64,000 nt of DNA from Candidatus Aegiribacteria sp. (GCA_030613065.1 JAUWMQ010000001.1:15648-79647), one strand, 5' to 3'; positions 4,656 to 31,894 are shown, counted from the stretch's first letter. Numbers and translations are program-made. The notes: generated by a model not told the origin, from the sequence alone.

Positions 4656-7217
4656 TTGTCAGATAAAAATGAAGCCTGTTGCTTTTCCATTTCAGACGAA
4701 TCCTACGCTCTGCTGCTTAACAACAACGCAGTCACTCGAATATCCCGGCCTCTTTCGCGTCTTCTGGATCGGATTCCGGTTAATCGTGACGCTGTGATAA
4801 AGGCTCTTTCCTTTCAGGAGGACGGCTCACTTCCAATCCTTCTGGGTGATCAGATCTGGCTCTCCTCCACAGTAAGTGCCGGCAACGGAAGGATTGTAAT
4901 ACTGAAAAACCCATCCAAACTGGAACTGGAGGAATGGCTGGAAGTTATTCAGGGGGGCAAACCGAGCTTAATAACCGATGGATCAGGAAATATATTTGCC
5001 TTGACCGAATCCGCAAACGCGCTTTTTGCAGGGTATGAATTAGCCTCCCTGAAAGATTTTCTTGATCAGGTCTCAATGACTGCTTACCTGTCGGCAAGTT
5101 CGAAATGTCTTTCAGGAAACCAGACCAGGGATTTCTCCGTACTGACAAAGAAAGGGCGGAAGAGTAGAAAATCCCATGTGATTTCCCTCAGAGAATCAGG
5201 TGTTCTGAACGAACTGCTCATAGCATCATTCTCATCCCCATCAATGGCTATGAGTACATTCGAGCAGGATGATTCAAAGTTCATCCGCACACTGTTTTCA
5301 GTAATACCCATACCTGCTATTAGAATTGATGACAAAGGCACCATTATAGCCATGAACACTCATGCTGTTCACCTGATTTCAAAGGTTGACGGCAAGGATC
5401 CCATTTCAACTAAATTCATTGACTGGATTACGGAAGAAGACCGGAACAGGGTGGCCAAACTCTATGAAAACCGGATTAGTTCTCTGGTTACTCCATATCT
5501 GTTCAAGGCAGGTATAACCATTTCAGATAACGTTATACAGCAGTTCGAATTAACAAGCCTTCTCATGCCTGAGAGGGAAATGTTACTCGTTTTTCTCGTA
5601 CCAGTTGACAAGATAGAGGGTTCCGATACCGCTCCTCTTATCAGCCAGACAATCAATAAACTGATAGATGTTCTTCGTGAGCCAAATCAGGATAACAACT
5701 CTGCAAGGGACATCCTGGAATTTCTAAGAGTTGGTGCAAGTGCAAGGGGAGCTGTCTACGTTTCAAAATCCAGGAGAATTACCGTCGGCGAGGTGACGCT
5801 ACCTGCCCAGGAAGAACAACTCAAGACAAAGAAAACTGTTTTCTGGACTGATGACTCGCTGGGTCACAATATTACGGTCCCGGTAAATAAGAAGCATGAC
5901 CAGGCTTACATAACGATCACAGGTATGTCTTCTCGAATTTCAGATCAACTCGGAAGACTCGTACTAAGTCTTGCGCCTGTGCTGGCTGAATACATTCAGT
6001 CAAACCATTACATACAGGCTGAGTTCAAGCTTCTCAATGCTATTTCGGTCTTCATGACCAGCCTGCAGGGCCGTGAGCGGAATGTCCGGACTCTGCTTGG
6101 TGAGATAGGATCGATCATAGGCGCTGATTACCTGGTTGTTCATACGGTCAGTTCCAGGGAACCTGTTCTCAAGCAGCTGGTTTCATTCGGTACTTCGACT
6201 GAACCCGGTATTCTGCGAATTGAGATTCCATCTATAGCATCATGGGCGTATACACATACTGAGATATGCTGCGTTCCGGATACAGCAGTTGATCAGAGAT
6301 TCTCCCCCATTTTTCCTTCTTCAAGAAGTGAATTGTCCATCCCGCTCATATCCAACGGGAAAACCATGGGAACACTGACAGTTGGCTGCACCAGGAGGGA
6401 TGCTTTCGGTTACCCTCTGGGAGGATTTCTTCAGACGATAGGCACAGCTCTTTCGCTTTGGTTGTTCATGGACAGCAGTGGAATGCGGGATGCAGGGAGC
6501 GTTCATAGTAAGAATAAAGCCGACGAAAACAACCCGGGGCTGGAAGATCTGTTATTGAGTCTTTCATACCGCATGAGAGCTCCCATTACTACTCTCAGAG
6601 GTCATACGGACCTTCTCTTTTCAGAGAAACTCGGTAAACTGACAGAAGAACAGAGAAAATCACTTGTCTCAATGAATACCGCTCTGATAAACCTGGTTGA
6701 ATATGCCGAAAGAATGCTTAACTTCATGAAGATTGAATTGAGCGAGGAAAACCTTGAAATATTGTGGGCCAGGCCTTCTGATGTGGTTTCCTCACTGCTG
6801 CCGATCCTCTCAGAGAAGGGCAGAACCCAGGGTGTTACCGTTAGCGCAGAACTTCCTTCTGAGCCATTCACTGCACCCTTCGATAGATCCATGCTCGAAC
6901 AGATAATCGGCAATCTTGTAAACAATGCCATACAGCATAACATATCTGGCGGATCCGCCAGGATAGAAATCAAATTAGAAGGCAGCAATTACTGGATACT
7001 TGAGGTTTTCAACACTGGAGAAGGAATTGCCCCCGAGGATCTTCCAAACGTTTTTGACAGGTTCTATACGGGCAGCAGTTCAGGCAGATACGCAGCAGGG
7101 CTTGGAATCGGTCTGACCATTGTAAAAAGCTTCGCCAGTCAGATGGGCGGTACGGTCAGTGTCCGGAGCAGGCCGGGATTCGGTACCTGGTTCACAGTTC
7201 GGCTTCCATTATCCTGA
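4656..7217 (+). CDS. Cytoplasmic PAS/GAF sensor histidine-kinase-like protein (H-box His replaced by Tyr)
   Basis: 853 aa with no obvious TM. Contains a PAS-like segment (FIRTLFSVIPIPAIRIDDKGTIIAMN), a GAF-like segment (LLGEIGSIIGADYLVVH...ELSIPLISNGKTMGTL), a HisKA-like helix (LSYRMRAPITTLRGHTDLL) and HATPase_c (NLVNNAIQH, FNTGEGI, GLGIGLTIVK). TTG start at 4656 lies after GAGGTG. The stop overlaps the queA ATG (TGATG). Confidence 0.85.
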   Translation: MSDKNEACCFSISDESYALLLNNNAVTRISRPLSRLLDRIPVNRDAVIKALSFQEDGSLPILLGDQIWLSSTVSAGNGRIVILKNPSKLELEEWLEVIQGGKPSLITDGSGNIFALTESANALFAGYELASLKDFLDQVSMTAYLSASSKCLSGNQTRDFSVLTKKGRKSRKSHVISLRESGVLNELLIASFSSPSMAMSTFEQDDSKFIRTLFSVIPIPAIRIDDKGTIIAMNTHAVHLISKVDGKDPISTKFIDWITEEDRNRVAKLYENRISSLVTPYLFKAGITISDNVIQQFELTSLLMPEREMLLVFLVPVDKIEGSDTAPLISQTINKLIDVLREPNQDNNSARDILEFLRVGASARGAVYVSKSRRITVGEVTLPAQEEQLKTKKTVFWTDDSLGHNITVPVNKKHDQAYITITGMSSRISDQLGRLVLSLAPVLAEYIQSNHYIQAEFKLLNAISVFMTSLQGRERNVRTLLGEIGSIIGADYLVVHTVSSREPVLKQLVSFGTSTEPGILRIEIPSIASWAYTHTEICCVPDTAVDQRFSPIFPSSRSELSIPLISNGKTMGTLTVGCTRRDAFGYPLGGFLQTIGTALSLWLFMDSSGMRDAGSVHSKNKADENNPGLEDLLLSLSYRMRAPITTLRGHTDLLFSEKLGKLTEEQRKSLVSMNTALINLVEYAERMLNFMKIELSEENLEILWARPSDVVSSLLPILSEKGRTQGVTVSAELPSEPFTAPFDRSMLEQIIGNLVNNAIQHNISGGSARIEIKLEGSNYWILEVFNTGEGIAPEDLPNVFDRFYTGSSSGRYAAGLGIGLTIVKSFASQMGGTVSVRSRPGFGTWFTVRLPLS

Positions 7218-8269
7218 TGAACTCAAAGAGACTTTCCAGAACCAGCATGCAATACAGCCTCCCTCCGGAGCTGATCGCTCAGAAACCCCTGAATGACAGA
7301 ACAGGAAGCAGACTTCTCACAGCGGATATCAGTAAGGGCAGCCTCGGGGACACGGTTTTCAGCAGACTGCCCGATTTTCTTGTTCCTGGTGATCTTCTGG
7401 TTCTGAATAATACAAGAGTTTTCAGAGCCAGGCTCTCGGGCAGGAAGGCTGAAACAGGAGGCAAGGCGGAAATATTCCTGTTGAAAAAACTGGATGAAAG
7501 CAGATGGAAAGCACTTGTCCGTCCCGGCAGGACGGCAAAGCCGGGAATGCGGCTGGAATTCGGAAATGGCCTTTACTGTACTTTGGAAAAGCGTTTGAAG
7601 CAGGGCAGGGCAGTAATCAGATTCAACCCCGGGAAGGATACTGAACAGAAGCTCCGGGAAACAGCGCAGATTCCGCTGCCTCCCTACATTAAACGGGATC
7701 CTGAGAAGCTGGATGACACGAGATATCAAACCGTCTACGCATCTGAAACCGGAGCGGTAGCTGCACCCACTGCTGGACTTCATTTTACATCAACTCTTCT
7801 TGCCAACCTTCAGGATGCCGGCATAGACAGTGTTCATGTAACTCTGCACGTGGGACCCGGGACATTTCAGCCGCTCCGTCAGGAGATTCTTGAAGATAAC
7901 AACCTTGATCCGGAGGAATACCATATTTCCGCGGAAAGCCTTGCGGCAATTAGAAAGACGCAAAGTGCCGGAGGAAGGATAGTGGCTGTGGGAACAACAA
8001 CCACCAGGGTTCTCGAGTCCATTGACATTGAATCGGGAGAGTCTTTATCAGGTGAGACTGAAATCTTTATATTCCCTCCATACAGATTCAGGAACGTGGA
8101 TGTGCTGATAACGAATTTTCATCTTCCCGGAAGTTCTCTTTTGTGCCTCGTAGCAGCTTTTATGGGATATGAATTCATGATGAAGGCCTATCAGCATGCT
8201 ATTTACGAATCCTACCGCTTCTACAGTTACGGAGATGCAATGCTGATTGAACAGGAGTCCAGAAAATGA
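7217..8269 (+). CDS. queA: S-adenosylmethionine:tRNA ribosyltransferase-isomerase
   Basis: 350 aa with YSLPPELIAQKPL..R..SRLL, AAPTAGLHFT, VGTTTTRVLES and FHLPGSSLL. An alternative start at M11 (7247) is possible. Confidence 0.95.
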   Translation: MNSKRLSRTSMQYSLPPELIAQKPLNDRTGSRLLTADISKGSLGDTVFSRLPDFLVPGDLLVLNNTRVFRARLSGRKAETGGKAEIFLLKKLDESRWKALVRPGRTAKPGMRLEFGNGLYCTLEKRLKQGRAVIRFNPGKDTEQKLRETAQIPLPPYIKRDPEKLDDTRYQTVYASETGAVAAPTAGLHFTSTLLANLQDAGIDSVHVTLHVGPGTFQPLRQEILEDNNLDPEEYHISAESLAAIRKTQSAGGRIVAVGTTTTRVLESIDIESGESLSGETEIFIFPPYRFRNVDVLITNFHLPGSSLLCLVAAFMGYEFMMKAYQHAIYESYRFYSYGDAMLIEQESRK

Positions 8270-9588
8270 CCGTCACATCCAGAAAATACGCTCTGCGTAA
8301 CAGAATATCCCCCAGTGTACAGCAGCTTGCCGGACTGTATATACTAGAGTTCGCTGTAATTCTTTCCTGGACACTCCTTCTGAACACTGTTTTCAACTTC
8401 ATTTCAGGAAGCTGGTTTATCCTCCTGCCTGTCAGCTACCTTCTTGCCGTTACCATGCTGGCATGGCTGGAAAGGGCTCGGACAGGTACCAGGGGACAGT
8501 GCCCTCTTGAGGCATTCGGCCTTGCCGAGATCAGCTTGAATGGCTTCAAGCCTTCCGAATGGCAGACTCTGATCAGGCTACTTCTGACTCCTCCCCTTCT
8601 TTTACTTCTGTGCGCCGGACTGGTACCGGTATCTCGAACGGGTAAAACTATTCTACAAATGATCTCAGGCACAAGGATAGTACCTCTAGATTCCGATATG
8701 GACCCCAGACCAAATGTGGAGATTTTCCGGAGCAGGAAAAAAGCTTTGATGAAAGTGATCTCGTACACCATGGTTTCCCTGATGGTTGCGACCATAATTA
8801 TTCTAGTTCCTTCGGAACTCTCAGTAGTCGGAACCGGAGGAAGGATAGCTTCTCTTCACAGCCTGCCTTCGACCGAAAGAGACCTTCTTGCCAAGTATCT
8901 GGAAATCAAGGCGATGTATCCGGACAGTCTTGAATTCCATGTCAGGCTTGCAAGCCTTTACTACAGAAACAATATGGAAGAGGACCTGCGGCTTGAGCTT
9001 GAACAGATAAGGAGCCTTGATCCGGATCACTCAATTCTCATGCTTGAGGAAGACTTTTCGGTCACCATGGAGGATCTCATGGTTGAGCAGGACTCCTCTT
9101 TCGCCGATTCAATACCGGCAGTTATTACGGTAGCTACTGTACCTGCTGTTGAGGAAACTACCGCTGTGCAGGATTCTGTGGTTCTTCAGCCGGATTCAGT
9201 ATCGCCCGACCCGGGGCTTGCAGCCTCCGATTCAATCGCCACACCTCTGGATTCAGTTCCAACAGCAGATTCAACTGAGATAGATGACATTGTCGATACG
9301 GGTTCCCCTGGTGTATCGACAGCAGAAGACAGCATACCGGAAATTGAAACCCCGCTTTTCCATCCTGATGAAACTGCCCCGGAAGAAATCCCCGATAGTA
9401 CCGTTATCGAAGATAGTACAGCCCCAGAAGACAGCACAATTCCCGTTACCGAAGACACCACTACGGTTGTAAGCGTGGACACCACTGCGGTTGTAAGCGT
9501 GGACAGCACGGAATCTCCTGCGGATATTGAAAGCGATGATACTTCAGAAGATTTTCCGCAGCCGGAACCTGAAACTGAAGGGATATAG
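8266..9588 (+). CDS. RDD-family-like membrane protein with a TPR-like segment and a long acidic, T/S/D/E-rich tail
   Basis: 440 aa. ATG overlaps the queA stop (ATGA). Contains hydrophobic helices plus an RDD-like end (GKTILQMISGTRIVPLD). The C-terminal ~170 aa is low-complexity and acidic. Confidence 0.6.
   Translation: MTVTSRKYALRNRISPSVQQLAGLYILEFAVILSWTLLLNTVFNFISGSWFILLPVSYLLAVTMLAWLERARTGTRGQCPLEAFGLAEISLNGFKPSEWQTLIRLLLTPPLLLLLCAGLVPVSRTGKTILQMISGTRIVPLDSDMDPRPNVEIFRSRKKALMKVISYTMVSLMVATIIILVPSELSVVGTGGRIASLHSLPSTERDLLAKYLEIKAMYPDSLEFHVRLASLYYRNNMEEDLRLELEQIRSLDPDHSILMLEEDFSVTMEDLMVEQDSSFADSIPAVITVATVPAVEETTAVQDSVVLQPDSVSPDPGLAASDSIATPLDSVPTADSTEIDDIVDTGSPGVSTAEDSIPEIETPLFHPDETAPEEIPDSTVIEDSTAPEDSTIPVTEDTTTVVSVDTTAVVSVDSTESPADIESDDTSEDFPQPEPETEGI
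9454..9501 (+). repeat. 2 x 24 bp tandem duplication inside the acidic tail of the RDD-like gene
   Basis: gacaccactAcggttgtaagcgtg (9454-9477) is followed by gacaccactGcggttgtaagcgtg (9478-9501). This encodes DTTTVVSV/DTTAVVSV. Confidence 0.85.
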
Positions 9589-9590
9589 TT

Positions 9591-10718
9591 CTGGAACCCA
9601 TTCCTTCGTTCACTCTCCTGGGAAGGTCGGGAAAAGCCCGAAGAGGCCTTCTGAATCTTGCCCATGGAAAGATTGAAACGCCGGTATTCATGCCTGTTGG
9701 CACCCAGGCCAGTGTAAAGACCGTCAGAAATTCCGATCTTCTAAAGGATAACTGGCAGATAATTCTCAGCAATACATACCATCTGTATCTCAGGCCCGGC
9801 GCTGAGGTTATTGCAGATGCCGGTGGTCTTCATCAATTCATGTCATGGGATAGGAATATCCTCACCGACAGCGGCGGATTCCAGCTGTTCAGTCTTTCAA
9901 AACTTAGAAAACGTTCCGAGGAGGGTTACCATTTCCAGTCACATATCGATGGCTCCAGTCATCTTCTTACACCGGAGAAGGTCGTTGAACTCCAGAAGAT
10001 ATTCGGGAGCGATATCATGATGATACTTGACGAATGTCTTGAACAGCCAAGCGACAGGCCTCGAACTGAAGAATCCCTGGATCTGACTCTCAGGTGGGCT
10101 GAACGGGCCAGAAAAATTCACCCCGGGGGTCAGCAGGCGCTTTTCGGTATCGTACAGGGAGGAGCTTACCCGGATCTCAGAAAAAAATCGGCAGAAGTTC
10201 TTGCAGGAATGGATTTCGATGGGTACGCAATAGGGGGAGTATCCGTGGGTGAACCCAGAAATCTGATGATGAAGTCGGTCAGATCCTGTATCGATCATCT
10301 CCCTGAAGAGAGACCAAGGTATCTGATGGGAGTGGGAAAACCGGAGGATCTCGTCGATTTTGTCGCTCTTGGAGTGGATATGTTCGACTGCGTCGTCCCC
10401 ACGAGAAACGCCAGGGGCGGAGCCTTCTTCGTTCCGGGGGGGCATATCAACATACGGAATGCCCGATTCAGAAATGATACCGCTCCGGTTCAGCAGGGAT
10501 GCCGATGCTATACATGCAGCACCTATTCAAGATCCTACATCAAGCACCTTTTCAACGCGAAGGAATGGCTGGCACCCATTCTCGCGACACTTCACAATCT
10601 CCACTATTTCTCCGTACTCATGGGTAAGATAAGAATGGCTGTTGAAGAGCGCCGCTACACCACTTGGAGAAGAGAGTGGCACAGGAAACGGCGGAGTTTT
10701 GACCCGGGAATCTTCTAG
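9591..10718 (+). CDS. tgt: Queuine tRNA-ribosyltransferase (tRNA-guanine transglycosylase); start codon non-canonical or unresolved
   Basis: ATG-ORF is 9690..10718 (MPVGTQASVK..., DCVVPTRNARGG, zinc site CRCYTCSTYSRSYIKHL). The same frame is open from 9579 and encodes LEPIPSFTLLGRSGKARRGLLNLAHGKIETPVF, which is the conserved Tgt N-terminus. No ATG/GTG/TTG lies in 9579-9689. Candidate starts are CTG 9591 (after GAAGGGA, 7-nt spacer), ATT 9600 and ATA 9585. Confidence 0.9.
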   Translation: MEPIPSFTLLGRSGKARRGLLNLAHGKIETPVFMPVGTQASVKTVRNSDLLKDNWQIILSNTYHLYLRPGAEVIADAGGLHQFMSWDRNILTDSGGFQLFSLSKLRKRSEEGYHFQSHIDGSSHLLTPEKVVELQKIFGSDIMMILDECLEQPSDRPRTEESLDLTLRWAERARKIHPGGQQALFGIVQGGAYPDLRKKSAEVLAGMDFDGYAIGGVSVGEPRNLMMKSVRSCIDHLPEERPRYLMGVGKPEDLVDFVALGVDMFDCVVPTRNARGGAFFVPGGHINIRNARFRNDTAPVQQGCRCYTCSTYSRSYIKHLFNAKEWLAPILATLHNLHYFSVLMGKIRMAVEERRYTTWRREWHRKRRSFDPGIF

Positions 10719-10722
10719 GAGC

Positions 10723-11964
10723 ATGTCCGACAATGAGATCATTGTTGAGATAACCGCCCTGGGCAACAGGGTGGGAGGAATTTCCTCCGGCCTGGGAGGA
10801 AAAACCGTATTCGTCCGCGGAGCCCTTCCCGGAGAGACGGTCAAATGCAGAACGGTAAAGGTCAGAAAGAATGTTATCGAGGCCGACCTGGTAGAAATCC
10901 TTGATCTATCACCCTATAGAACAGAACCTTTCTGCAGCTGTTTTGGTAAATGCGGCGGTTGCTCACTACAGAATCTCCTGTATTCAAGGCAGCTATTCTG
11001 GAAGCGGAACTGGATTGATAATGTACTTACAAGAGCCTTTATCGTTTACCCCGATGAGCTCATGAAAGATGTTATTCCATCACCTGCTACAGCGGGCTAC
11101 AGGAACCGTGTTTCCTTTGATATCCTTAACTGCAAACCGGGGCTTCACCGCTTCAGGGGAGACGTTATGGTCGTTGATGGCTGCCCGCTGCTCAACAGAA
11201 GGGGACAGAAGGCATTCGAAAGGCTATTTGAAAAACAGCTGGATGGTAGCAGGAGAGTGTCTGTAAGAGCATCTGAGAGAACGGGAGAAGCAATGCTCGA
11301 GTTTTCAGGCCTCTCATCTATGAAAATTGCCAGCGGACGTGATTCAGATATCATCGCATGGAAAGATATCAGTGGCTGGCAGATTGATCCTCGCGGATCT
11401 GTACTCCACGAAATCGTGGGCGGTTTTACGTATCCCGTTAGACCAGGTACGTTCTTCCAGGTGAATACCGGCTGCGCTGACATCATTATCTCCATTGTCA
11501 CAGGCTTGTGCCGGGAAGACAGGAAGACCCTGGACCTTTACGGAGGTTGTGGTACCTTTGCTCTGCCCCTGGCCTCTGGGGGGGCTGTAGTGACCTCTGT
11601 CGAGTTAAACCCTGATGCGTCAGCATCCGGAAAAGAAGCTGCCGAACTCTCTGGAATTAGTGGAGTTAACTTTCTGACCGGCAGAACAGAACATTTTCTG
11701 CTGGATACCGTACGGGCGAAACAGGCCTGGGACACTGTTATCGTGGATCCTCCGCGGGCGGGGCTGGGAATCAGTATCTCACGCCTTCTGCAAAGAGTCA
11801 TCGCGAAGAGGATTGTTTATATAAGCTGCAACCCCTTCACAATGGCCAGGGATCTGAAAGTGTTATGTGAAGGCAACTGGGCTGTTGCCGGGATACAGCC
11901 AGTTGATATGTTTCCACAGACGGATCATGTGGAGACAGTGACTGAACTGAAGAGGAAGGAATAG
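10723..11964 (+). CDS. RlmD/RumA-family 23S rRNA (uracil-5)-methyltransferase (TRAM + 4Fe-4S + SAM MTase)
   Basis: TRAM-like N-terminus, Cys cluster CSCFGKCGGCSLQ, SAM fold DLYGGCGTF, VIVDPPRAGL, and catalytic YISCNPFT. Start moved to ATG 10723 (AGGAG at 10717-10721), just after the tgt stop, in place of the track start 10642. Confidence 0.85.
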   Translation: MSDNEIIVEITALGNRVGGISSGLGGKTVFVRGALPGETVKCRTVKVRKNVIEADLVEILDLSPYRTEPFCSCFGKCGGCSLQNLLYSRQLFWKRNWIDNVLTRAFIVYPDELMKDVIPSPATAGYRNRVSFDILNCKPGLHRFRGDVMVVDGCPLLNRRGQKAFERLFEKQLDGSRRVSVRASERTGEAMLEFSGLSSMKIASGRDSDIIAWKDISGWQIDPRGSVLHEIVGGFTYPVRPGTFFQVNTGCADIIISIVTGLCREDRKTLDLYGGCGTFALPLASGGAVVTSVELNPDASASGKEAAELSGISGVNFLTGRTEHFLLDTVRAKQAWDTVIVDPPRAGLGISISRLLQRVIAKRIVYISCNPFTMARDLKVLCEGNWAVAGIQPVDMFPQTDHVETVTELKRKE

Positions 11965-24619: not shown

Positions 24620-24702
24620 AATTTGTTTCTAGTAGTTGGAAAGAATCTTGCTTTACTATTAATCGTTCGGTGGAAAATACAAAAGTACAAGGAGATTTTC
24701 AA

Positions 24703-24792
24703 ATGCAGAAGCCTGGGTTGAAAAACTGGATGATGGTCATTATTGCAGTGATTATCGTGCCGGCTTTCATTCTTGTAGTATTGCCGATCTGA
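24703..24792 (+). CDS. Candidate 29-aa single-helix membrane micro-protein
   Basis: Below the ORF-track cutoff. AAGGAG (24689-24694) is followed 8 nt later by ATG. Product is MQKPGLKNWMMVIIAVIIVPAFILVVLPI, with stop TGA at 24790-24792. It lies opposite to both flanking genes in the 281-nt deoC-pcrA spacer. Confidence 0.3.
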   Translation: MQKPGLKNWMMVIIAVIIVPAFILVVLPI

Positions 24793-24840
24793 CCCCCTCC
24801 CTGATCGGCTGTAGAGAATGATTTGTGACCCAGGACATAA

Positions 24841-24873
24841 GCAGGCAACTGGTTGACCCCTCCAGTTGCCTGC
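24841..24873. terminator. Perfect 12-bp stem hairpin between deoC and pcrA
   Basis: GCAGGCAACTGG (24841-24852), loop TTGACCCCT, CCAGTTGCCTGC (24862-24873). It lies 27 nt after the deoC stop. No clear U-tract on either strand. Confidence 0.45.
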
Positions 24874-24900
24874 GCTAATATTACTGCACGAATTGTGTCA

Positions 24901-25554
24901 TCAGGCATTCAAAGACTCAATTATCTCTATGCTTCTGCTGCAGCCAAGTCTTCCAGCTCCAGCCTCTATCATCGCAAGTGCATCCATGAGAGTTCTGATC
25001 CCACCTGAAGCCTTCACACCAAGTGTTTTCCCGACAATACTTCGCATAAGAGCAACATCAGATACCGTAGCACCGCCGGTGTTGAAACCAGTGGAAGTTT
25101 TGACCCAGGAAGCACCGCTGTCCATAGCGATTCTGCATGCAAGAACCTTCTCCTCGTCAGTTAGAAGACAGGTTTCAAGAATAACCTTGACCGGTTTTCC
25201 TGAAGACGCATGGACAACATCCTGAATACAGCCTGCTGTTTTCTTAATATTACCGTCCTTCAGATGCCCTATAGGTATCACCATGTCCAGCTCGCCGGCT
25301 CCCAGGTCCACAGCTTTCAAAGCTTCTTCTCCCATGCAGTTTGTTGCACCGAGTGGAAATCCTATGACGGAACAGACTATGGATCCGGATTCCCTTAATA
25401 TCTCTGAAGCGACCGGCACCCACATTGGATTGATACAAGCGGAATAGAATCCGTAACGAATCGTCTCCTCGCAGAGTCTTTCAATTTCATTCTGAACGGT
25501 CTCTGGTTTAAGCAGTGTATGATCGATAAATGGAGCAAGTTCTGATCTGGTCAA
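24901..25554 (-). CDS. deoC: Deoxyribose-phosphate aldolase
   Basis: 217 aa. IDHTLLKPE, and the Schiff-base Lys context WVKTSTGF. Confidence 0.92.
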   Translation of the reverse strand: MTRSELAPFIDHTLLKPETVQNEIERLCEETIRYGFYSACINPMWVPVASEILRESGSIVCSVIGFPLGATNCMGEEALKAVDLGAGELDMVIPIGHLKDGNIKKTAGCIQDVVHASSGKPVKVILETCLLTDEEKVLACRIAMDSGASWVKTSTGFNTGGATVSDVALMRSIVGKTLGVKASGGIRTLMDALAMIEAGAGRLGCSRSIEIIESLNA

Positions 25555-25558: not shown

Positions 25559-26884
25559 CTAGCCTTCCCTTAGAAACAGCAGATTTATTCCGCCAGGATC
25601 AACAGACACGGATTCATCACTGTAAATAGTTCGACCATTTATTTCAATCCTGACAGGATGTTCTCCTGCGGGAAGCCTGAGACGGGCTACGAATATCTGA
25701 GAAGGCAGTGTAAGCCACGCTCTCAAGTCTGCCCGTTCAGTGACGGCACCTACAATACTCAGAAGGAACCCTGTAACACGAGAAATGTCACTGTTCTCCT
25801 CTGTAAGCTCCTCAACAAGCTGTTCCCCCGCCTCTGTCAAACCGGCCTTTACAGCCAGCCTGGCAACAGCTCTCGCGATATCACGTCCTGCATGATCCTC
25901 AAGGTTCTTTCTGGCTATAGCTGTAAGATCTTCTGCAAGGAATCCCTGAACCTGCGTGTTTCCAGAAGAAAGAGTGACCGACCAGGATTCATGCTGTTTG
26001 AGCGCTATTATGGCCGGGAGAGAGACTCTGTAAACCCGGTCGTTGAGAACAAAGGTATAGGATTTCTCTACCCTGGCAGGGATCATTCCAACTTCGAGAA
26101 TAACCACTAGTTCACCATGATCCTGATCTGGACCTTCGTTTTCCCAGCTCACTTCAGGCCAACGCGAGGAGTAGTCCTGAAACACCGATTGCATGCCAAG
26201 CACACTGGAAAGTCTCAGAATGTCGGATTTCACCCGCAAGGGGGCTGAAATGCCGTAATCCAATGCATACGAAGAATCGTATACATCGGCACTGTTCCTG
26301 TAAGCTATAAGGGCATTATTGAGATCTCCAGCTTTCTCGTAGAGAATACCCATGAGATATCTGATAAAGGCATCATCATTGTACCTGTTCTTGTTCTCTT
26401 CATAATTCTGGTTAAGCACTCGCAGCTTGTCGTTAACCCTTCTACATTCAACGAGAGCGTCCTCCATATTGTTTTCCGAGGCATAACTTGCTGCTAAGCA
26501 ATAATTAATAAAAACTTTCTCATAGTCTGCCCCTCGGAACTCGAGAGCCAGATCGCTGCTTAGAAATGCCTCAATTTCCTGCCCAAGTTCAATTCCCCGC
26601 TGCTGGTCGCTCAGTCTGTCAGCCTGAAGCAAAAGATTTTCAGCCGAGGAGAAATCACCTGAAAGCCGCATCAGATTGCCCAGTTCCATAAGGTAGAGAA
26701 GCCTGTTCCTGCCGGTTGAATCAGTAAAATTCTCTCTGAATTCCTCAAGGGCAAGATCAGGTCTATCCATCCTCAGATTTGAGGTTACCGGTCTCATTTC
26801 GCTGGTATAATCTGTTGCGCAGCCATATATTACAACTGCTAACGTAATTGCGATTATGGCTGATGAATAACATGGTCTGATCAT
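25559..26884 (-). CDS. TPR-like lipoprotein of unknown function (family often found next to LpoB-like genes)
   Basis: 441 aa. Lipobox VIYGC. The helical-repeat N-terminal half (LYLMELGNLMRLSGDFSSAENLL, YLMGILYEKAGDLNNALIAY) is followed by a beta-rich C-terminal half. Confidence 0.7.
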   Translation of the reverse strand: MIRPCYSSAIIAITLAVVIYGCATDYTSEMRPVTSNLRMDRPDLALEEFRENFTDSTGRNRLLYLMELGNLMRLSGDFSSAENLLLQADRLSDQQRGIELGQEIEAFLSSDLALEFRGADYEKVFINYCLAASYASENNMEDALVECRRVNDKLRVLNQNYEENKNRYNDDAFIRYLMGILYEKAGDLNNALIAYRNSADVYDSSYALDYGISAPLRVKSDILRLSSVLGMQSVFQDYSSRWPEVSWENEGPDQDHGELVVILEVGMIPARVEKSYTFVLNDRVYRVSLPAIIALKQHESWSVTLSSGNTQVQGFLAEDLTAIARKNLEDHAGRDIARAVARLAVKAGLTEAGEQLVEELTEENSDISRVTGFLLSIVGAVTERADLRAWLTLPSQIFVARLRLPAGEHPVRIEINGRTIYSDESVSVDPGGINLLFLREG

Positions 26885-26946
26885 AGCATTGCTATCTCCA
26901 TTACAGGACGGTCATTTAGAAGGTCAACAGGATTCGAGGGCTGTTT

Positions 26947-27549
26947 CTACCACTCAATCATTTTCTTGATCTCGAGGCTTCCAATCCAGGACTTAAGTGC
27001 TGTTTCAACATCGATAAGCTCCAGGCTGATCTGGTAGTAAATACTCCTGACACTACCTTCTTCATCAACTATTGATCCGACACTACCGGTCATGACATAG
27101 TCTGCACCGATCTCATGACCGAATGCAGCGGCAGTTGCCGGTGAGGCGAAGATTACCTGGTCTTCTCTTTCAGATCTGACTTCACCTCTGCTTGCTCCGC
27201 CTGCCGCTATCTGCACTTCACCCGATTCCAGAAGAGACTGTTCTATGGCATTCATGAAGATATCTGTGTTTATATGTTCTGAACTCTCGTTGAAGATGCA
27301 GCCTACAACAATTACCGGTCCTGCCGGGTGTTCCCCCCTGGTACCCCTGGATGCGAAATGCGTAAGCCATCTACCATCGAGACACTGGGTAATCATAGAG
27401 TCAGCCACCATGTGGGCATCGGTTTCATTCCAGTAACCGCTGAGATCGGTTACTGTATCAGGATCGGTTCGAGTAACTTCTCTGCCTCCACAGCCGGCAA
27501 TGAGAGCGATCAAGGCAGAAGTTACAAGGATCTTAAATGCATTATTCAT
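26947..27549 (-). CDS. LpoB-family lipoprotein (penicillin-binding protein activator LpoB-like)
   Basis: 200 aa. Lipobox LIAGC. The pattern VVGCIFNESSEHINTDIFMNAIEQSLLESG ... GADYVMTGSVGSI ... YQISLELIDVETALKSW matches the LpoB C-terminal domain architecture by eye. Confidence 0.7.
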   Translation of the reverse strand: MNNAFKILVTSALIALIAGCGGREVTRTDPDTVTDLSGYWNETDAHMVADSMITQCLDGRWLTHFASRGTRGEHPAGPVIVVGCIFNESSEHINTDIFMNAIEQSLLESGEVQIAAGGASRGEVRSEREDQVIFASPATAAAFGHEIGADYVMTGSVGSIVDEEGSVRSIYYQISLELIDVETALKSWIGSLEIKKMIEW

Positions 27550-27567
27550 AATATTTTCCTTTCGGTT

Positions 27568-28428
27568 TCAGTTCCCACTCTGTTCAATCCAGGGTATCGG
27601 TACTACTCCCCGGAAAACTACGTTGTAATATCCGCTTTCCCTCAGAGCTGTTCCTTCGATAGGAGGGTCAAGCGGCTTAAATATCAATGCGTACGGAGAT
27701 TGAAAATCTGAGATTGTGTCAGGGGACTGCTCCCATGAATCCCGTGTCCATTCCCACATTATTCGTTCCTCGGGCGTTTGATTCTCAGAGAACATGGCCA
27801 GTCTTGCTGGAGTTGTACCTATAATACCGGAGAGGGTCATCGATATGAAATCCGAATAGACATTCATAACTTCCCATGTATCCTCGAACCCTATTACACC
27901 GGCTGAAGTTGCGGCGGCTATTTCCACTCTTGTGGGAAGTCTTTTACCTTTGTCATTCAGAAAAAGTCTTGCGGCATCAAACGTGATTGAAGTAGCGGGA
28001 ATATCAAAACACCCGGTCTGTACGGTAAAGCCGGTTACTCCGTTCTGCTCGTCCTTGTAAACAACCCATGGCGTATATCTGATGAAGATGATGTTACTGA
28101 ATTCCTCACCCATGCTTTCACCGGGCATAAGCAGTTCTTCCTGTCCGGTAAGATAGACCGGTATCTGGTCGACATGGGATACCTCCAGGGCAAGCCAATC
28201 AAGAATATCTCTGCAGATAACAGGTTCCGCATCAATGAAAAAAGGATCTACAGAGATGGTTTCCCCACTAATTATTACGGTTGAAGGACCTATATACTCC
28301 ATCCCCAGGGGAGGGATGGGGAGGTCGCAATCAGTACAGAAATCCCCATTATTATCTGTACCGCATGCCGGGCAGGTCCATGCGTAAACAACAGATACAA
28401 GGATAAATATAAGATAGAGTATTTTCAA
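27568..28428 (-). CDS. N-terminal zinc-ribbon protein with a degenerate FGE-sulfatase/SUMF1-like domain
   Basis: 286 aa. A hydrophobic N-terminus is followed by CPACGTDNNGDFCTDC. KGKRLPTRVEIAAA, IMWEWTRDSW and VVFRG resemble the RLPTEAEWEYAA, NVWEW and RVxRGG motifs of FGE-like domains. Confidence 0.5.
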   Translation of the reverse strand: MKILYLIFILVSVVYAWTCPACGTDNNGDFCTDCDLPIPPLGMEYIGPSTVIISGETISVDPFFIDAEPVICRDILDWLALEVSHVDQIPVYLTGQEELLMPGESMGEEFSNIIFIRYTPWVVYKDEQNGVTGFTVQTGCFDIPATSITFDAARLFLNDKGKRLPTRVEIAAATSAGVIGFEDTWEVMNVYSDFISMTLSGIIGTTPARLAMFSENQTPEERIMWEWTRDSWEQSPDTISDFQSPYALIFKPLDPPIEGTALRESGYYNVVFRGVVPIPWIEQSGN

Positions 28429-28491
28429 ATCGATTTTCCTCCATATTTCATAATACTGTCGGCGTCTTAAATGGAATATACTTTATCCCCA

Positions 28492-31400
28492 TCAGAATTC
28501 AGCCCCGATGGTAATATTCTGCGCAGGCTTGCGGGAGATGCCGTGAAGATCGGTGCGCCAGGTGATATCATGCTTCAGCAGAAGGTAGCCAAGGTTGAAT
28601 CTGTATCCGAATCCAAGGCCTATCTTCAGATCATCAAGATGATAACCTCCTGCAGTGGAAGCTCCATGAAAACTGGAAAAGTCATCGAATGCGGAACCAA
28701 TATCGAAGAACAGAACACCTCTTCCGTTTCTGAAGGTAAGCGGAATGGGGGCATCAAGTGCCAGTACATTAACGAAGGGTACCCTTAATTCCGCTGAAAA
28801 GATGCCATATCTGCGCCCCTGAATACTGGCATAATCATACCCTCTCAGTAGGTCACCGTGGTTTGAATAAAAACCAAGAAGTTCATCTATGGTCTCTACT
28901 TTTCCCGATAGCAACCTGTGGGGTGTTGCGCCGCCAAGAAAGAATTTTTGCGCATCAGGTCCCCAGCTTGATCCACCAGCCAGCCTTGTGGCGAATGTCA
29001 CTCTCTGGGACACCCAGAGGTAATTTCTCAGATCAAATAGAATCGTACTGTAACTTGCTGAACCTGAAATAGATGGAGCATACTCAGCAACAACGCTTAA
29101 TCGGCTCCCAACCCTTGGTCCTACACTTCCCCAAAGGGCATTATCAATGACAGCCCCTGCCTGTAGAGAAAGGATGTCCTCATCAAGATCTGCGGTTGAA
29201 TTCCAGGTACCGGTTCGGCTTAAATGCCTGTACTCCAGTGAACCGCTGATGCTGAATGATGGACTGAACGGGTACCTGGCCGCAGTAAATCCGCCCAGAT
29301 CAACGTCTCTGACCTCTTCATAATGGCCATCGGAAAATCTGAACAGAAGCCTGTTTGATTGCCGCAAAAGACCGAAAACGTAATCGGTACGATGGGGAAG
29401 ATAAGCATAGAATACAGCCACATCCACATCACTGAGACTGCCTCCGTTCAGATTCGTATTAATTACAATCTGATGGTGAGCAAGAATATCGCTGAGAATG
29501 AACTGTGTATAGCCAGAAATGCCTAAGTATGAGTCGTATGCCGCCATGGCGCTGACGTAATCTATAGTCAGTCTTGGTGTATAAGGGGAAATTCTGCACT
29601 GGAACTCATCCTCGATGCTATGAGTGGATGTATCATCGGACTCTGCTGCTTCATGAATAAGCTCAGATGAAGCCGTAAGGCTCCGAGGTTCTGGACGGCC
29701 ACGGTTCTCTGATGTCCCCGTTGAATCAGCAATTGGATAAACCTCAGGAATGAGCCTGTTTTCCGTTCCAGCAGTTGTTATATGATAGCTCCCGTGTTCA
29801 CATTCAATCACCCTTCTTTCTGTAATGTCGTATGCAAGAAATACACCGCTACCACTCCAGTCACTGGATACGAAAGTCAGTATATCGGAGGAATCAGACC
29901 AGGAAGGGGAATCGATGGTTCGGTAAAGGGCTGTAAGGCGGACAATCTCATCGGTGGAACTCTGAAGCAGGTAAAGGTCAGGGAAACCACTCATGTCAGA
30001 TAGAAAGAGTATCCCATCCGGAACGCTGATGGGATATCTGATATCGGAAGAATCAGACAGTACAGTAACGGATTCTCCTTCAAGGGTATATTCGAGTATT
30101 CGAGTCTCTCCATTGACTGATTCAACAGCACAAAGGATTTTATCATCAATCCAGGACAGATCCCGTTCCCCTGATATATCATCACTTATCTGTGATAATT
30201 CCTGCTCCAGTATATCCCATACGTAGATATTAAGCTGACTATTTTCCATGCCTACAAATCCTATATACCGGCCGCAGGATGACCAGGCCGGATCACGGAT
30301 AAGATCCAGTTCAAAGGGCAGGTTTACCTTATTTCCATCAGAACAGATGATCAGTTGATTTCCGGAGACATACTGCACCGCTACGGCTATGGAATCAGCA
30401 GATGGGGAAAAACTGCATATCCGATACATTGGTGATATTGAAGCATCTGAGATTCCTCCGGATACGAACGGCCTGTCTTCTACCTCACCCGTCAAAGCTG
30501 ATCTGACGGTCACTGCAAAATGTGCCTGATGGTATTCAACACCGGCAACAAGCCTTCCATTACTTGATATTATGGAATTGATCTGCATTATTCTTTCATT
30601 ATCCCTGTAAATAGCGTTTGCAATATCACTTGGACTCTCACCACAGGCCAACTCGGACCAGTATGTTTCACGAGCCCATTCAAGGAATTTCTCATTGAAT
30701 TGAGTACTGGACATACCAAATACTGCATCGAAAGGATCTCCGGATCTGCGCCGTTCGTCGGAAGAATCATCCGATTCCATGGTTGAAACGAAATCTCTTC
30801 TACTTCGGAAATTGATACGATGGACGAATTCCCTGAGCTTCTCCTTACCGTACCTTTCGTTCATAAAATGGTAGATCGCCTGGCCTTCACGGTAAACAAG
30901 ATAATCCCCTCTTCTGGAAAGCTCATCAATGGAAACGATCTGATTCGAGATGACCATGTCTCTGAATTCGGCTTCGGAAGCCGCATCCCAGCCGAGGGAT
31001 GTGTATTCTGCAAGTCCCTCCATCATCCAGAGGGGTGTGCCTCCAGTAATGATGTTAAGCAGGGAACGCTTGTAAAGCATATCGAAGATGAAAGCATGGT
31101 TAATTTCATGGGCTACTACATGACGAAACTCGGACCAGTAACCTGTGAAAGGCACGACTACTCTGCCTTTATAAAACTCAGTGAACCCTCCAACTGCCTG
31201 GGATATTTCGTATGGATTGATATCAGTCTGCCTGAAATCGCCAGGGGAAATGTAAAGCACGATAGGTATCGGTTCTTCCGGCATGTAATTGAATTCCTCT
31301 GAAAGCTTAAGCAACTCTCTTTCTGTTTGTACAAGAAGAGTTTCCGCCGGTACTTCTCCGCCCTCAGGAAAGTAAATAGTAAAATGCCTGGCCTGAATCT

Positions 31401-31503
31401 CCCACCATTCCTGTTCCCCTACCTGGACTTTGTTACGTCCATAGGAAGTTGCGAAACAGAGTGTGAAAAGAACAGGCAGGAATATGATTAATGCCTTTTT
31501 CAT
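28492..31503 (-). CDS. Outer-membrane fusion protein: HExxH peptidase-like domain + TolB-like beta-propeller + Omp85 (bacterial surface antigen) barrel
   Basis: 1003 aa. Signal peptide MKKALIIFLPVLFTLCFA, zinc motif VVAHEINHAF ... EGLAEY, a central WD40/PD40-like repeat region, and a C-terminal Omp85-like region (LLRGYDY, ELRVPF, GVLFFDIGSAF, GLGFGYRF) ending ITIGAEF. Confidence 0.8.
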   Translation of the reverse strand: MKKALIIFLPVLFTLCFATSYGRNKVQVGEQEWWEIQARHFTIYFPEGGEVPAETLLVQTERELLKLSEEFNYMPEEPIPIVLYISPGDFRQTDINPYEISQAVGGFTEFYKGRVVVPFTGYWSEFRHVVAHEINHAFIFDMLYKRSLLNIITGGTPLWMMEGLAEYTSLGWDAASEAEFRDMVISNQIVSIDELSRRGDYLVYREGQAIYHFMNERYGKEKLREFVHRINFRSRRDFVSTMESDDSSDERRRSGDPFDAVFGMSSTQFNEKFLEWARETYWSELACGESPSDIANAIYRDNERIMQINSIISSNGRLVAGVEYHQAHFAVTVRSALTGEVEDRPFVSGGISDASISPMYRICSFSPSADSIAVAVQYVSGNQLIICSDGNKVNLPFELDLIRDPAWSSCGRYIGFVGMENSQLNIYVWDILEQELSQISDDISGERDLSWIDDKILCAVESVNGETRILEYTLEGESVTVLSDSSDIRYPISVPDGILFLSDMSGFPDLYLLQSSTDEIVRLTALYRTIDSPSWSDSSDILTFVSSDWSGSGVFLAYDITERRVIECEHGSYHITTAGTENRLIPEVYPIADSTGTSENRGRPEPRSLTASSELIHEAAESDDTSTHSIEDEFQCRISPYTPRLTIDYVSAMAAYDSYLGISGYTQFILSDILAHHQIVINTNLNGGSLSDVDVAVFYAYLPHRTDYVFGLLRQSNRLLFRFSDGHYEEVRDVDLGGFTAARYPFSPSFSISGSLEYRHLSRTGTWNSTADLDEDILSLQAGAVIDNALWGSVGPRVGSRLSVVAEYAPSISGSASYSTILFDLRNYLWVSQRVTFATRLAGGSSWGPDAQKFFLGGATPHRLLSGKVETIDELLGFYSNHGDLLRGYDYASIQGRRYGIFSAELRVPFVNVLALDAPIPLTFRNGRGVLFFDIGSAFDDFSSFHGASTAGGYHLDDLKIGLGFGYRFNLGYLLLKHDITWRTDLHGISRKPAQNITIGAEF

Positions 31504-31579: not shown

Positions 31580-31894
31580 ATGCGAATATACACAATTGCG
31601 ACAATTCCGTTGATGATCGCTCTTATTACACTGATGTCATGTGATAAACCCGATTCCTACAGTGCAATTCCGGATAACAGGAAGATTGAACTCCAGGAAT
31701 GGGCAGGAATCCTCGCGAGACACTGGGTTCTGCAACCAGGTGACAGCCTTCGCCCCGAGAAGCCTGAGGATAGTGAATTACTCTCTTTGATACAATCATG
31801 CGAATCAAATCCGGAAGCATGGGCTTACCTGTATAGTTGTATAGCCGACACGATTGCAGTTCTTGAACCCCCATCGCCAGCTTGCCAGCAGTGA
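31580..31894 (+). CDS. Small lipoprotein, unknown function
   Basis: 104 aa. AGGAG lies 4 nt before the ATG. Lipobox ALITLMSC. Confidence 0.55.
   Translation: MRIYTIATIPLMIALITLMSCDKPDSYSAIPDNRKIELQEWAGILARHWVLQPGDSLRPEKPEDSELLSLIQSCESNPEAWAYLYSCIADTIAVLEPPSPACQQ

What the first reader, a model, noticed from the sequence alone, without database searches (positions are those of the whole stretch)
25559..31503. Envelope gene cluster: Omp85-peptidase fusion, zinc-ribbon/FGE-like protein, LpoB-like lipoprotein and TPR lipoprotein
Four co-directional genes lie upstream of deoC, with gaps of 63, 18, 62 and 4 nt. All have signal peptides or lipoboxes.

LpoB-family lipoproteins are known in enterobacteria as activators of PBP1B. 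Here the LpoB-like gene sits between a TPR lipoprotein and a protein that combines a CxxC...CxxC ribbon, placed directly after its hydrophobic N-terminus, with a degenerate FGE/SUMF1-like fold. All three are preceded by a giant outer-membrane protease-barrel fusion.

This combination suggests a trans-envelope module linking the outer membrane to peptidoglycan or lipoprotein processing. I do not recognise it as a described system. That the genes are functionally linked is inferred from adjacency only.
Basis: partly seen in the sequence, partly recalled or inferred. Interest (0 to 1): 0.6.

Follow-up and report, generated by a model that had tools for sequence, protein, structure and literature searches.

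The report
Envelope operon around a conserved lipoprotein pair
Four exported-protein genes do sit together in this uncultured Aegiribacteria (Fermentibacterota) genome, but only two of them, an LpoB-like and a TPR lipoprotein, form a gene pair kept across many bacterial phyla, so this is a local variant of a known but poorly understood envelope module and not a new four-part machine.

Summary
Four co-directional minus-strand genes with gaps of 63, 18, 62 and 4 nt lie upstream of deoC, and all four products have signal peptides or lipoboxes.

- **The pair.** The LpoB-like gene and the TPR lipoprotein gene are a strongly conserved pair. They were adjacent in 77 of 80 proteobacterial-type loci and in 34 of 40 loci from other bacterial families. 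The TPR protein belongs to the large COG3014 family. By published descriptions, not tested directly here, this family includes H. pylori HP0018 and C. jejuni Cj0089.
- **The Omp85 fusion.** It belongs to the described but uncharacterised "WD40-Omp85" subfamily. It occurs in about a third of unrelated genomes and is never next to the pair outside Fermentibacterales.
- **The zinc-ribbon/FGE-like protein.** It is specific to Fermentibacterales (70 of 70 genomes there, at most 1 of 231 elsewhere). It lacks any cysteine where FGE enzymes carry their catalytic pair.
- **Synteny.** Within the order the whole cdsA-to-tkt block is syntenic, and unrelated genes are inserted into the cluster in one family. 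Adjacency there is therefore not evidence of joint function.
- **LpoB mechanism.** No PBP1B-type UB2H domain exists in the genome, so the canonical LpoB-PBP1B mechanism is unlikely.

Verdict: a new variant of a known kind, of moderate-low interest.

The parts
28492..31503 (-). WD40-Omp85 family outer-membrane protein (1003 aa): signal peptide, gluzincin-type peptidase domain, TolB-like beta-propeller, variable linker and Omp85 barrel. No POTRA domain was detected.
   Evidence: - Pfam Peptidase_MA_2 34 bits and Omp85 40 bits; TIGR02800 TolB propeller partial match.
- PDB TolB hits down to E 1.8e-6.
- It is the third Omp85 gene of the genome, beside a canonical BamA with POTRA domains and a TamA-like gene.
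- Full-length homologues occur in many other families.
31096..31110 (-). HEINH zinc-binding motif of the peptidase domain (residues 132-136). A candidate third ligand Glu lies in MMEGLAEY downstream.
   Evidence: Direct reading. An HExxH motif is present at the equivalent position in all 18 distant homologues examined.
27568..28428 (-). Fermentibacterales-specific secreted protein (286 aa): signal peptide, Cys4 knuckle (C19, C22, C31, C34) and a degenerate FGE/C-type-lectin-like domain with no cysteine in the C-terminal half.
   Evidence: - Pfam FGE-sulfatase 25.3 bits against a cut-off of 23.3.
- Cys positions.
- The N-terminal motif is conserved in the order.
- Present in 70 of 70 order genomes and at most 1 of 231 others.
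- No PDB sequence hit.
- The single-sequence AF2 model was unusable, pLDDT 33.
26947..27549 (-). LpoB-family (COG3417-type) lipoprotein (200 aa): lipobox Cys20, short linker, globular domain at residues 44-194.
   Evidence: - PF13036 at 114 bits; TIGR02722 at 85.6 bits, below its 110.55 cut-off.
- It is the only LpoB-family gene in the genome.
- The subfamily is highly conserved, with 60% mean column identity across phyla.
- The subfamily profile barely detects the solved LpoB structure 4q6l (E 0.68).
25559..26884 (-). COG3014-family lipoprotein (441 aa): lipobox Cys22, TPR solenoid (residues 26-241), and a beta-sandwich with a helical hairpin (residues 256-440) that carries the family motif TExADxRxWxTLP (residues 382-394).
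   Evidence: - 3564 clusters at 50% identity match at E<=1e-3.
- Invariant residues.
- AF2 model with pLDDT 87 and pTM 0.86. Foldseek against the PDB returns only TPR matches.
- NCBI names homologues 'COG3014 family protein'.
24901..25554 (-). deoC, 4 nt downstream. Probably co-transcribed as a cytoplasmic passenger gene.
   Evidence: TIGR00126 at 254 bits. It follows the TPR gene in 12 of the 14 order loci where the contig extends past that gene; in a 13th (L030) its match is split in two, and in the 14th (L025) it lies out of frame with the deoC reading frame my ORF caller picked. It is absent from the pair's neighbourhood in other phyla.
31580..31894 (+). Small opposite-strand lipoprotein gene (104 aa, lipobox LMS|C). 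It separates rseP from the Omp85 fusion, so the cluster needs its own promoter.
   Evidence: ORF. tblastn and phmmer matches at the same position throughout the order. No Pfam or NCBIfam hit.

Best explanation
The locus is a composite Fermentibacterales operon. It most likely runs from its own promoter upstream of the Omp85 fusion through deoC. It strings together three separately evolving units.

1. **The conserved core: the LpoB-like/COG3014 TPR lipoprotein pair.**
   - It is the counterpart of C. jejuni Cj0091/Cj0089 and H. pylori HP1457/HP0018.
   - I infer that the two lipoproteins form a periplasmic complex tethered to the membranes.
   - In this reading the TPR solenoid is the docking surface, and the complex controls peptidoglycan remodelling or outer-membrane/cell-wall cohesion.
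   - It would not act as the enterobacterial LpoB-PBP1B activator.
2. **A lineage-specific secreted FGE-fold protein with a Cys4 knuckle.**
   - It is probably a non-enzymatic binding module.
   - It sits where other phyla carry an Lpp20-type lipoprotein gene.
3. **A WD40-Omp85 outer-membrane protein.**
   - Its periplasmic gluzincin and propeller domains most plausibly act in envelope protein quality control or processing.
   - It is inherited independently of the pair.

Shown: the gene structures, the domain content, the conservation of the pair and the independence of the other two genes. Inferred: the physical complex, the peptidoglycan-related role, the protease function and co-transcription.
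For: **Pair linkage**
- An LpoB-like gene sits immediately upstream of the COG3014 gene on the same strand in 77 of 80 loci. These come from Gamma-, Beta- and Zetaproteobacteria, Desulfuromonadota, Campylobacterales and Nitrospira. The other 3 loci are at contig ends.
- It is adjacent in 34 of 40 loci drawn from other families.
- The flanking genes are otherwise unrelated.

**Variant arrangements match the literature**
- Lpp20-like/LpoB-like/COG3014/Lpp20-like operons with overlapping stop and start codons.
- COG3014/DUF1425/LpoB-like, the same order as cj0089-cj0090-cj0091 (PMC3100323).

**Published phenotypes**
- An HP0018 deletion gives chains of outer-membrane vesicles and altered cell shape. 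[quoted passage not shown]

**Not canonical LpoB**
- TIGR02722 scores below its cut-off.
- The only UB2H matches in 36 order genomes lie in two reading-frame length classes. The two own-genome examples translate to Mfd and UvrB.
- The two class A PBPs are 694 and 645 aa.

**Independence of the other two genes**
- Profiles over 301 genomes.
- WD40-Omp85 homologues stand alone in 18 loci from other families.

**Outer-membrane association of the COG3014 family**
- One family member carries a C-terminal OMP beta-barrel domain.
Against: - No experiment or complex prediction links the two lipoproteins physically. No LpoB-like/COG3014 fusion protein was found among 150 family representatives.
- Cj0089 fractionated with the inner membrane and Cj0091 with the outer membrane (PMC3100323). 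A simple same-membrane complex is therefore not assured.
The equivalence rests on NCBI's COG3014 naming of homologues and on matching size, architecture and operon context.
- The four genes are kept together in all 70 Fermentibacterales genomes, with short gaps in most. A lineage-specific functional link therefore cannot be excluded.
- The peptidoglycan-related role rests on one co-immunoprecipitation study in a distant organism.
Confidence: 0.6

Rival explanations
1. One reading: all four proteins form one trans-envelope machine. The Omp85-protease barrel sits in the outer membrane, with the FGE-like, LpoB-like and TPR proteins beneath it. The machine links the outer membrane to peptidoglycan or lipoprotein processing.
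For: - Same order and strand in all 70 Fermentibacterales genomes searched.
- Short gaps, good ribosome-binding sites and no internal terminator-like hairpins.
- All four products are exported.
- Across 231 unrelated genomes the Omp85 fusion and COG3014 families co-occur more often than chance (33 with both; odds ratio 3.6, p 5e-5).
Against: - The whole 14-kb block, including cytoplasmic deoC, pcrA and tkt, is equally syntenic. Conservation within this shallow clade is therefore not discriminating.
- Passenger genes (Vut_1/YhhQ-type transporter, nitroreductase) are inserted between cluster genes in family f2. An insertion-sized gap of about 700-800 nt separates the barrel gene and the FGE-like gene in several genera.
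- Outside the order the barrel fusion and the pair are never neighbours. Two genomes with the barrel fusion lack COG3014 altogether.
- The co-occurrence is confounded by both families being restricted to bacteria with two membranes.
Confidence: 0.15
2. The LpoB-like lipoprotein is a genuine activator of a class A penicillin-binding protein, as in E. coli. The TPR lipoprotein is an accessory regulator, an LpoA/LpoB-like division of labour.
For: - Strong Pfam LpoB match at 114 bits.
- Two class A PBP genes are present.
- The authors of PMC11394524 propose that HP1457, as an LpoB homologue, may regulate PBP1.
Against: - It scores below the curated LpoB equivalog cut-off (85.6 against 110.55).
- No UB2H docking domain occurs outside Mfd and UvrB.
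- The linker between the lipid anchor and the domain is only about 24 residues.
- A profile of this subfamily detects the solved LpoB structure only at E 0.68.
- The near-obligate pairing with COG3014 is, from my own knowledge, not a feature of enterobacterial LpoB.
Confidence: 0.2
3. The neighbourhood is pure historical accident: none of the genes, including the LpoB-like/TPR pair, work together.
For: Operons in this clade carry unrelated passengers (deoC, Vut_1, nitroreductase).
Against: The pair is adjacent in 111 of 120 sampled loci across many phyla, while all other neighbours vary. Start and stop codons often overlap.
Confidence: 0.02

Closest known systems
C. jejuni cj0089-cj0090-cj0091 lipoprotein operon (Oakland et al. 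2011, PMC3100323) and H. pylori HP0018 / HP1457 (Rosinke et al. 2024, PMC11394524)
   Same: - A TPR lipoprotein of about 440-455 aa is encoded next to an LpoB-family lipoprotein of about 200 aa. Both have lipoboxes.
- The same pairing is seen in 111 of 120 loci here.
- The COG3014/DUF1425/LpoB-like order of C. jejuni recurs in four sampled loci.
   Different: - Here the order is LpoB-like then TPR.
- There is no DUF1425/YcfL-type gene and no Lpp20-type gene in the cluster. The genome has no LPP20 match at all.
- A lineage-specific FGE-like protein lies upstream instead.
- Direct sequence comparison with the Campylobacter and Helicobacter proteins was not done.
E. coli LpoB, the outer-membrane lipoprotein activator of PBP1B
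   Same: Same Pfam family (PF13036, 114 bits), and a lipoprotein.
   Different: - Below the TIGR02722 cut-off.
- Short linker.
- No UB2H-bearing PBP in the genome.
- Always paired with a COG3014 gene.
- The subfamily profile barely sees the LpoB structure 4q6l.
WD40-Omp85 subfamily of the Omp85/TpsB superfamily (Heinz and Lithgow 2014, PMC4104836)
   Same: An Omp85 barrel is preceded by a TolB-like beta-propeller instead of POTRA domains. The subfamily is functionally uncharacterised.
   Different: The text passages of that paper which I searched discuss the propeller and do not mention the N-terminal HExxH peptidase domain. Here that domain and its motif are conserved in all 19 homologues examined, the window's protein plus 18 distant ones.
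FGE/SUMF1 formylglycine-generating enzymes and non-enzymatic FGE-fold proteins (e.g. GldJ/GldK/PorK)
   Same: - Weak but above-threshold Pfam FGE-sulfatase match.
- Typical fold motifs are visible by eye: GM.F.P at the domain start, F.ID..PV, RLPT, WEWT.D and a terminal FRG.
   Different: - No cysteine in the C-terminal half, where, from my own knowledge, FGE enzymes carry the catalytic pair.
- No NCBIfam GldJ/GldK hit at E<=0.1.
- An N-terminal Cys4 knuckle follows the signal peptide.
- The family is restricted to one order.

Membership tests
LpoB (PBP1B activator, TIGR02722 equivalog) | Scores above the curated equivalog cut-off | tested here: not met
   85.6 bits against a cut-off of 110.55. 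Pfam PF13036, the broader family, is met at 114 bits.
LpoB (PBP1B activator, TIGR02722 equivalog) | Cognate PBP1B with a UB2H docking domain in the same genome | tested here: not met
   PF14814 matches in 36 order genomes fall in reading frames of about 1120-1180 aa or about 656-660 aa, apart from one 406-aa frame. In the own genome these two frames translate to Mfd and UvrB. The two class A PBPs are 694 and 645 aa.
LpoB (PBP1B activator, TIGR02722 equivalog) | Outer-membrane lipoprotein with a long flexible linker that spans the periplasm | tested here: inconclusive
   The lipobox LIAG|C is present. Only about 24 residues lie between Cys20 and the domain start at residue 44. Localisation is not testable here.
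COG3014 family (HP0018 / Cj0089 type TPR lipoproteins) | Full-length homology to family members, including the C-terminal TExADxRxWxTLP motif and the lipobox Cys | tested here: met
   - Full-length hits at 25-37% identity to hundreds of clusters.
- Invariant C22, D386, R388, W390 and P394.
- Homologues are named 'COG3014 family protein' by NCBI.
COG3014 family (HP0018 / Cj0089 type TPR lipoproteins) | Encoded next to an LpoB-family gene | tested here: met
   18-62 nt gaps here. Adjacent in 77 of 80 and 34 of 40 loci elsewhere.
COG3014 family (HP0018 / Cj0089 type TPR lipoproteins) | Direct sequence similarity to HP0018 or Cj0089 themselves | not tested
   Neither sequence was available to the tools. 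The link rests on the papers' descriptions (size, TPR, lipobox, LpoB-homologue neighbour) and on a Campylobacterales homologue, L098.
WD40-Omp85 subfamily | C-terminal Omp85 barrel with an N-terminal TolB-like propeller and no POTRA | tested here: met
   - Omp85 at 40 bits against a cut-off of 24; TolB propeller partial matches.
- No POTRA hit, whereas the genome's BamA shows four POTRA matches in the same kind of scan.
- A cryptic POTRA in residues 640-735 is not excluded.
BamA | POTRA repeats plus an Omp85 barrel; the essential OMP insertase | tested here: not met
   No POTRA was found. A separate 743-aa gene with POTRA domains (180 bits) and Omp85 (179 bits) lies on contig C95.
Formylglycine-generating enzyme (FGE/SUMF1) | Complete FGE-sulfatase domain with the catalytic cysteine pair near the C-terminus | tested here: not met
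   The Pfam match covers only profile positions 31-128 of 255. The cysteines lie at residues 19, 22, 31, 34, 72 and 140 only. The position of the catalytic pair comes from my own knowledge.
Lpp20-type four-lipoprotein operon (Lpp20-like / LpoB-like / COG3014 / Lpp20-like) | LPP20 (PF02169) lipoprotein genes flanking the pair | tested here: not met
   There is no PF02169 match in the whole genome at E<=0.1. The flanking genes here are the FGE-like gene and deoC.

The most novel reading that the evidence does not exclude
In Fermentibacterota the Lpp20/YcfL-type partners of the LpoB-like/COG3014 pair have been replaced by a secreted FGE-fold protein with a Cys4 knuckle. This trio would work with the WD40-Omp85 protease encoded at the head of the operon, in the slot after rseP that bamA occupies in proteobacteria. 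Together they would form a lineage-specific trans-envelope complex that couples outer-membrane protein processing to cell-wall remodelling.
Probability: 0.12. Interest if true: 0.6.

Novelty: new variant of a known kind. Interest (0 to 1): 0.33.

Why it matters
The LpoB-like/COG3014 pair is one of the more widespread envelope modules whose mechanism is still unknown. It occurs in about a quarter of the unrelated genomes sampled here, and the family holds thousands of sequence clusters.

Public annotation calls its small member "penicillin-binding protein activator LpoB". This locus adds to the evidence that the label is misleading outside enterobacteria, because the genome has no UB2H partner and the score is below the curated cut-off.

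The locus also documents that WD40-Omp85 proteins carry a conserved HExxH protease domain. That is a testable lead for periplasmic quality control.

The specific four-gene arrangement matters little beyond Fermentibacterota.

Tried and rejected
- **FGE-like protein fold.** Single-sequence AlphaFold2 gave pLDDT 33 and was unusable. This wasted one of two folding jobs.
- **The search for related loci with the 45-sequence alignment.** A 16-sequence sub-alignment centred on TExADTRSW worked, but the 80 loci it returned are biased towards Proteobacteria.
- **Foldseek of the TPR protein model against the PDB.** It returned only generic TPR matches such as kinesin light chain, MamA and PilF. The C-terminal domain remains unassigned.
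- **PDB sequence searches.**
  - Nothing for the FGE-like protein.
  - Only TPR noise for COG3014.
  - LpoB 4q6l only at E 0.68.
- **UB2H search.** It first looked positive in 29 of 36 genomes. The own-genome frames proved to be Mfd and UvrB.
- **Fusion-protein (Rosetta-stone) search.** No LpoB-like/COG3014 fusions were found. The only fusions were an OMP beta-barrel and DUF2846.
- **Conserved neighbours of WD40-Omp85 in other phyla.** None was found, apart from one genome with the cdsA-dxr-rseP context.
- **Literature.** A search for Omp85 with PD40 or Peptidase_MA_2 found nothing.

Full report
**1. Observation**

The four minus-strand ORFs exist exactly as described:
- 28492-31503, 1003 aa.
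- 27568-28428, 286 aa.
- 26947-27549, 200 aa.
- 25559-26884, 441 aa.

deoC follows at 24901-25554. The gaps are 63, 18, 62 and 4 nt.

Upstream lie cdsA, dxr and rseP. They are separated from the cluster by a small opposite-strand lipoprotein gene (31580-31894), so the cluster must have its own promoter. Each gene has a plausible Shine-Dalgarno sequence. No minus-strand terminator-like hairpin lies between 24400 and 32100.

Names attached to near-identical homologues place the organism in Candidatus Aegiribacteria, phylum Fermentibacterota.

**2. Domain content**

*1003-aa protein*
- Peptidase_MA_2 at residues 63-228, with HEINH at 132-136.
- A TolB-like propeller, with PDB TolB hits down to E 1.8e-6.
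- An Omp85 barrel at residues 735-984.
- No POTRA domain was detected.
- The genome also holds a canonical BamA (743 aa, POTRA 180 bits plus Omp85 179 bits) and a TamA-like gene elsewhere. This protein is therefore a third, non-BamA Omp85.

*286-aa protein*
- A cleavable signal peptide (AxA|W), then CPxCG-x7-FCxxC. This motif is conserved through the order.
- A weak, partial FGE-sulfatase match (25.3 bits against a cut-off of 23.3).
- All six cysteines lie in the N-terminal half, so an FGE-type catalytic pair is absent.

*200-aa protein*
- A lipoprotein matching Pfam LpoB at 114 bits.
- It scores below the curated TIGR02722 LpoB cut-off (85.6 against 110.55).

*441-aa protein*
- A lipoprotein with only sub-threshold TPR hits.
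- An AlphaFold2 model built on a 40-sequence alignment is confident (pLDDT 87, pTM 0.86).
- The model shows a TPR solenoid (residues 26-241) followed by a beta-sandwich with a long helical hairpin (residues 256-440).
- Foldseek against the PDB finds only generic TPR proteins.

**3. Conservation within the clade does not discriminate**

The 1003-aa protein, the FGE-like protein and the TPR protein are found in all 70 Fermentibacterales genomes searched. In the 16 order loci read in full, all four genes lie in the same order.

The entire block from cdsA to transketolase is equally conserved. That block includes the cytoplasmic deoC and pcrA genes.

In family f2 a Vut_1 (YhhQ-type) transporter gene lies between the barrel gene and the FGE-like gene. 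A nitroreductase gene lies between the FGE-like gene and the LpoB-like gene. Several genera show an insertion-sized gap of about 700-800 nt after the barrel gene.

The operon therefore tolerates unrelated passengers.

**4. The real conserved unit is the pair**

The TPR protein belongs to a very large family that is not in Pfam. It has 3564 clusters at 50% identity at E<=1e-3. The family shows an invariant lipobox Cys and a C-terminal TExADxRxWxTLP motif. NCBI names its members "COG3014 family protein".

*Loci retrieved with this motif.* Eighty loci came from Gamma-, Beta- and Zetaproteobacteria, Desulfuromonadota, Campylobacterales, Nitrospira and others.
- 77 have an LpoB-like gene immediately upstream on the same strand. 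The other three are cut by contig ends.
- The operon there is usually Lpp20-like / LpoB-like / COG3014 / Lpp20-like, with overlapping stops and starts.

*Less biased sample.* I took one genome per family from 231 non-Fermentibacterales genomes.
- 59 carry the family.
- In 34 of 40 loci examined the LpoB-like gene is adjacent.
- The remaining neighbours are unrelated housekeeping genes, with no FGE or Omp85 domain.
- Four loci have the order COG3014 / DUF1425 / LpoB-like. This is the arrangement published for C. jejuni cj0089-cj0090-cj0091 (PMC3100323).

*Published work on the pair.*
- In enterohepatic Helicobacter species, the homologue of HP0018 (itself the homologue of Cj0089) lies next to the homologue of HP1457, which is an LpoB homologue.
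- Deleting hp0018 causes chains of outer-membrane vesicles and loss of helical shape.
- HP0018 co-immunoprecipitates with MltD and AmiA (PMC11394524).

I could not align HP0018 or Cj0089 directly. That link rests on matching descriptions and on the COG3014 naming.

**5. The LpoB label**
- A profile of the COG3014-associated LpoB-like subfamily is very conserved, with 60% mean column identity across phyla. It detects the solved LpoB structure 4q6l only at E 0.68.
- The only UB2H-domain matches in 36 order genomes fall in two reading-frame length classes. In the own genome these frames translate to Mfd and UvrB.
- The two class A PBPs are 694 and 645 aa.
- The linker after the lipid anchor is about 24 residues.

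The enterobacterial mechanism, in which LpoB reaches through the cell wall to dock on the UB2H domain of PBP1B, is therefore not supported here. The near-obligate partner is the COG3014 protein.

**6. The other two genes are independent**

*FGE-like protein.* It is found in 70 of 70 Fermentibacterales genomes and at most 1 of 231 others, and that one hit is marginal. The genome has no LPP20-family gene. The FGE-like gene occupies the position that Lpp20-like genes hold elsewhere, but this is positional evidence only.

*Omp85 fusion.*
- It matches the "WD40-Omp85" subfamily described by Heinz and Lithgow (PMC4104836).
- 78 of 231 other genomes match at E<=1e-10. Many are full-length matches; the weakest may be partial.
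- The HExxH motif and an N-terminal FGKNKVQY-type motif are conserved in 18 distant members.
- In none of those loci is it next to the pair.
- In genomes with both families where both matches were listed, the two lie on different contigs or more than 600 kb apart.
- The families co-occur more often than chance (33 genomes with both; odds ratio 3.6, p 5e-5). Both are restricted to bacteria with two membranes, which confounds this figure.
- One unrelated genome also places the fusion directly after cdsA-dxr-rseP.

**7. Mechanism**

*Shown*
- Four exported proteins.
- An intact gluzincin motif on a POTRA-less Omp85.
- A conserved lipoprotein pair.
- No UB2H partner.

*Inferred*
- The LpoB-like and COG3014 lipoproteins form a periplasmic complex, with the TPR groove as the docking surface. 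The groove carries many invariant acidic and aromatic residues.
- The complex influences peptidoglycan hydrolases or outer-membrane/cell-wall cohesion, by analogy with HP0018.
- One family member fused to an OMP beta-barrel supports a location under the outer membrane. The published inner-membrane fractionation of Cj0089 argues for caution.
- The FGE-fold protein is probably a non-enzymatic binding module.
- The Omp85 fusion is probably a periplasm-facing protease or scaffold for envelope protein quality control.

Whether these two cooperate with the pair in this lineage remains open. I put that at about 0.12-0.15.

**8. Earlier notes from this scan**

Earlier notes describe the same cluster in other Fermentibacteria, and the same pair in many phyla. 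I treated them as leads. My own searches reach the same conclusion independently.

**9. Verdict**

The cluster is a lineage-specific variant built around a known but mechanistically unexplained lipoprotein pair, preceded by a member of a described Omp85 subfamily. Interest is moderate-low.

Noticed in passing
window 31580-31894 (+): A 104-aa lipoprotein gene (lipobox LMS|C) lies on the opposite strand between rseP and the Omp85 fusion. It is conserved at this position throughout the order (26-56% identity) and has no Pfam or NCBIfam match.
   Followed up: partly
L166 (G134:C1:2332000-2345000), 5003-11647: In one genome of an unrelated family the WD40-Omp85 homologue also sits directly downstream of cdsA-dxr-rseP. 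That is the slot bamA occupies in proteobacteria (from my own knowledge). The other 17 distant homologues lack this context.
   Followed up: partly
P0203 (677 aa), P0196 (831 aa), P0245 (951 aa): Some COG3014-family proteins carry C-terminal extensions: an OMP_b-brl_2 outer-membrane barrel domain (P0203) or DUF2846 (P0196, P0245). This points to an outer-membrane location for the family.
   Followed up: partly
L029 6778-7494 (-) and 8165-8851 (-): In family f2 of the order, a nitroreductase gene and a Vut_1 (YhhQ-type) transporter gene are inserted inside the cluster. The FGE-like protein there has a lipobox (LLAG|C) instead of a type I cleavage site.
   Followed up: yes
L037, L038, L040, L041 (same-genus genomes), between rseP and the small lipoprotein gene: A 3.7-4.2 kb insertion is present in several congeners but absent from this window. 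Its content was not examined.
   Followed up: no
L125 5539-6789 and L136 4764-6029: Two genomes of other phyla have tandem duplicated LpoB-like genes upstream of the COG3014 gene.
   Followed up: no
G000 contigs C98:8540-11935 and C51:15914-17884: The Pfam UB2H model hits the domain-2 regions of Mfd and UvrB at E 1e-2 to 1e-4 across the order. A genome-wide UB2H hit is therefore not by itself evidence of a PBP1B.
   Followed up: yes
window 24620-24900: A 281-nt spacer follows deoC before pcrA. It may be the terminator of the operon, but my consensus scan, which requires a T-run, did not flag it.
   Followed up: no
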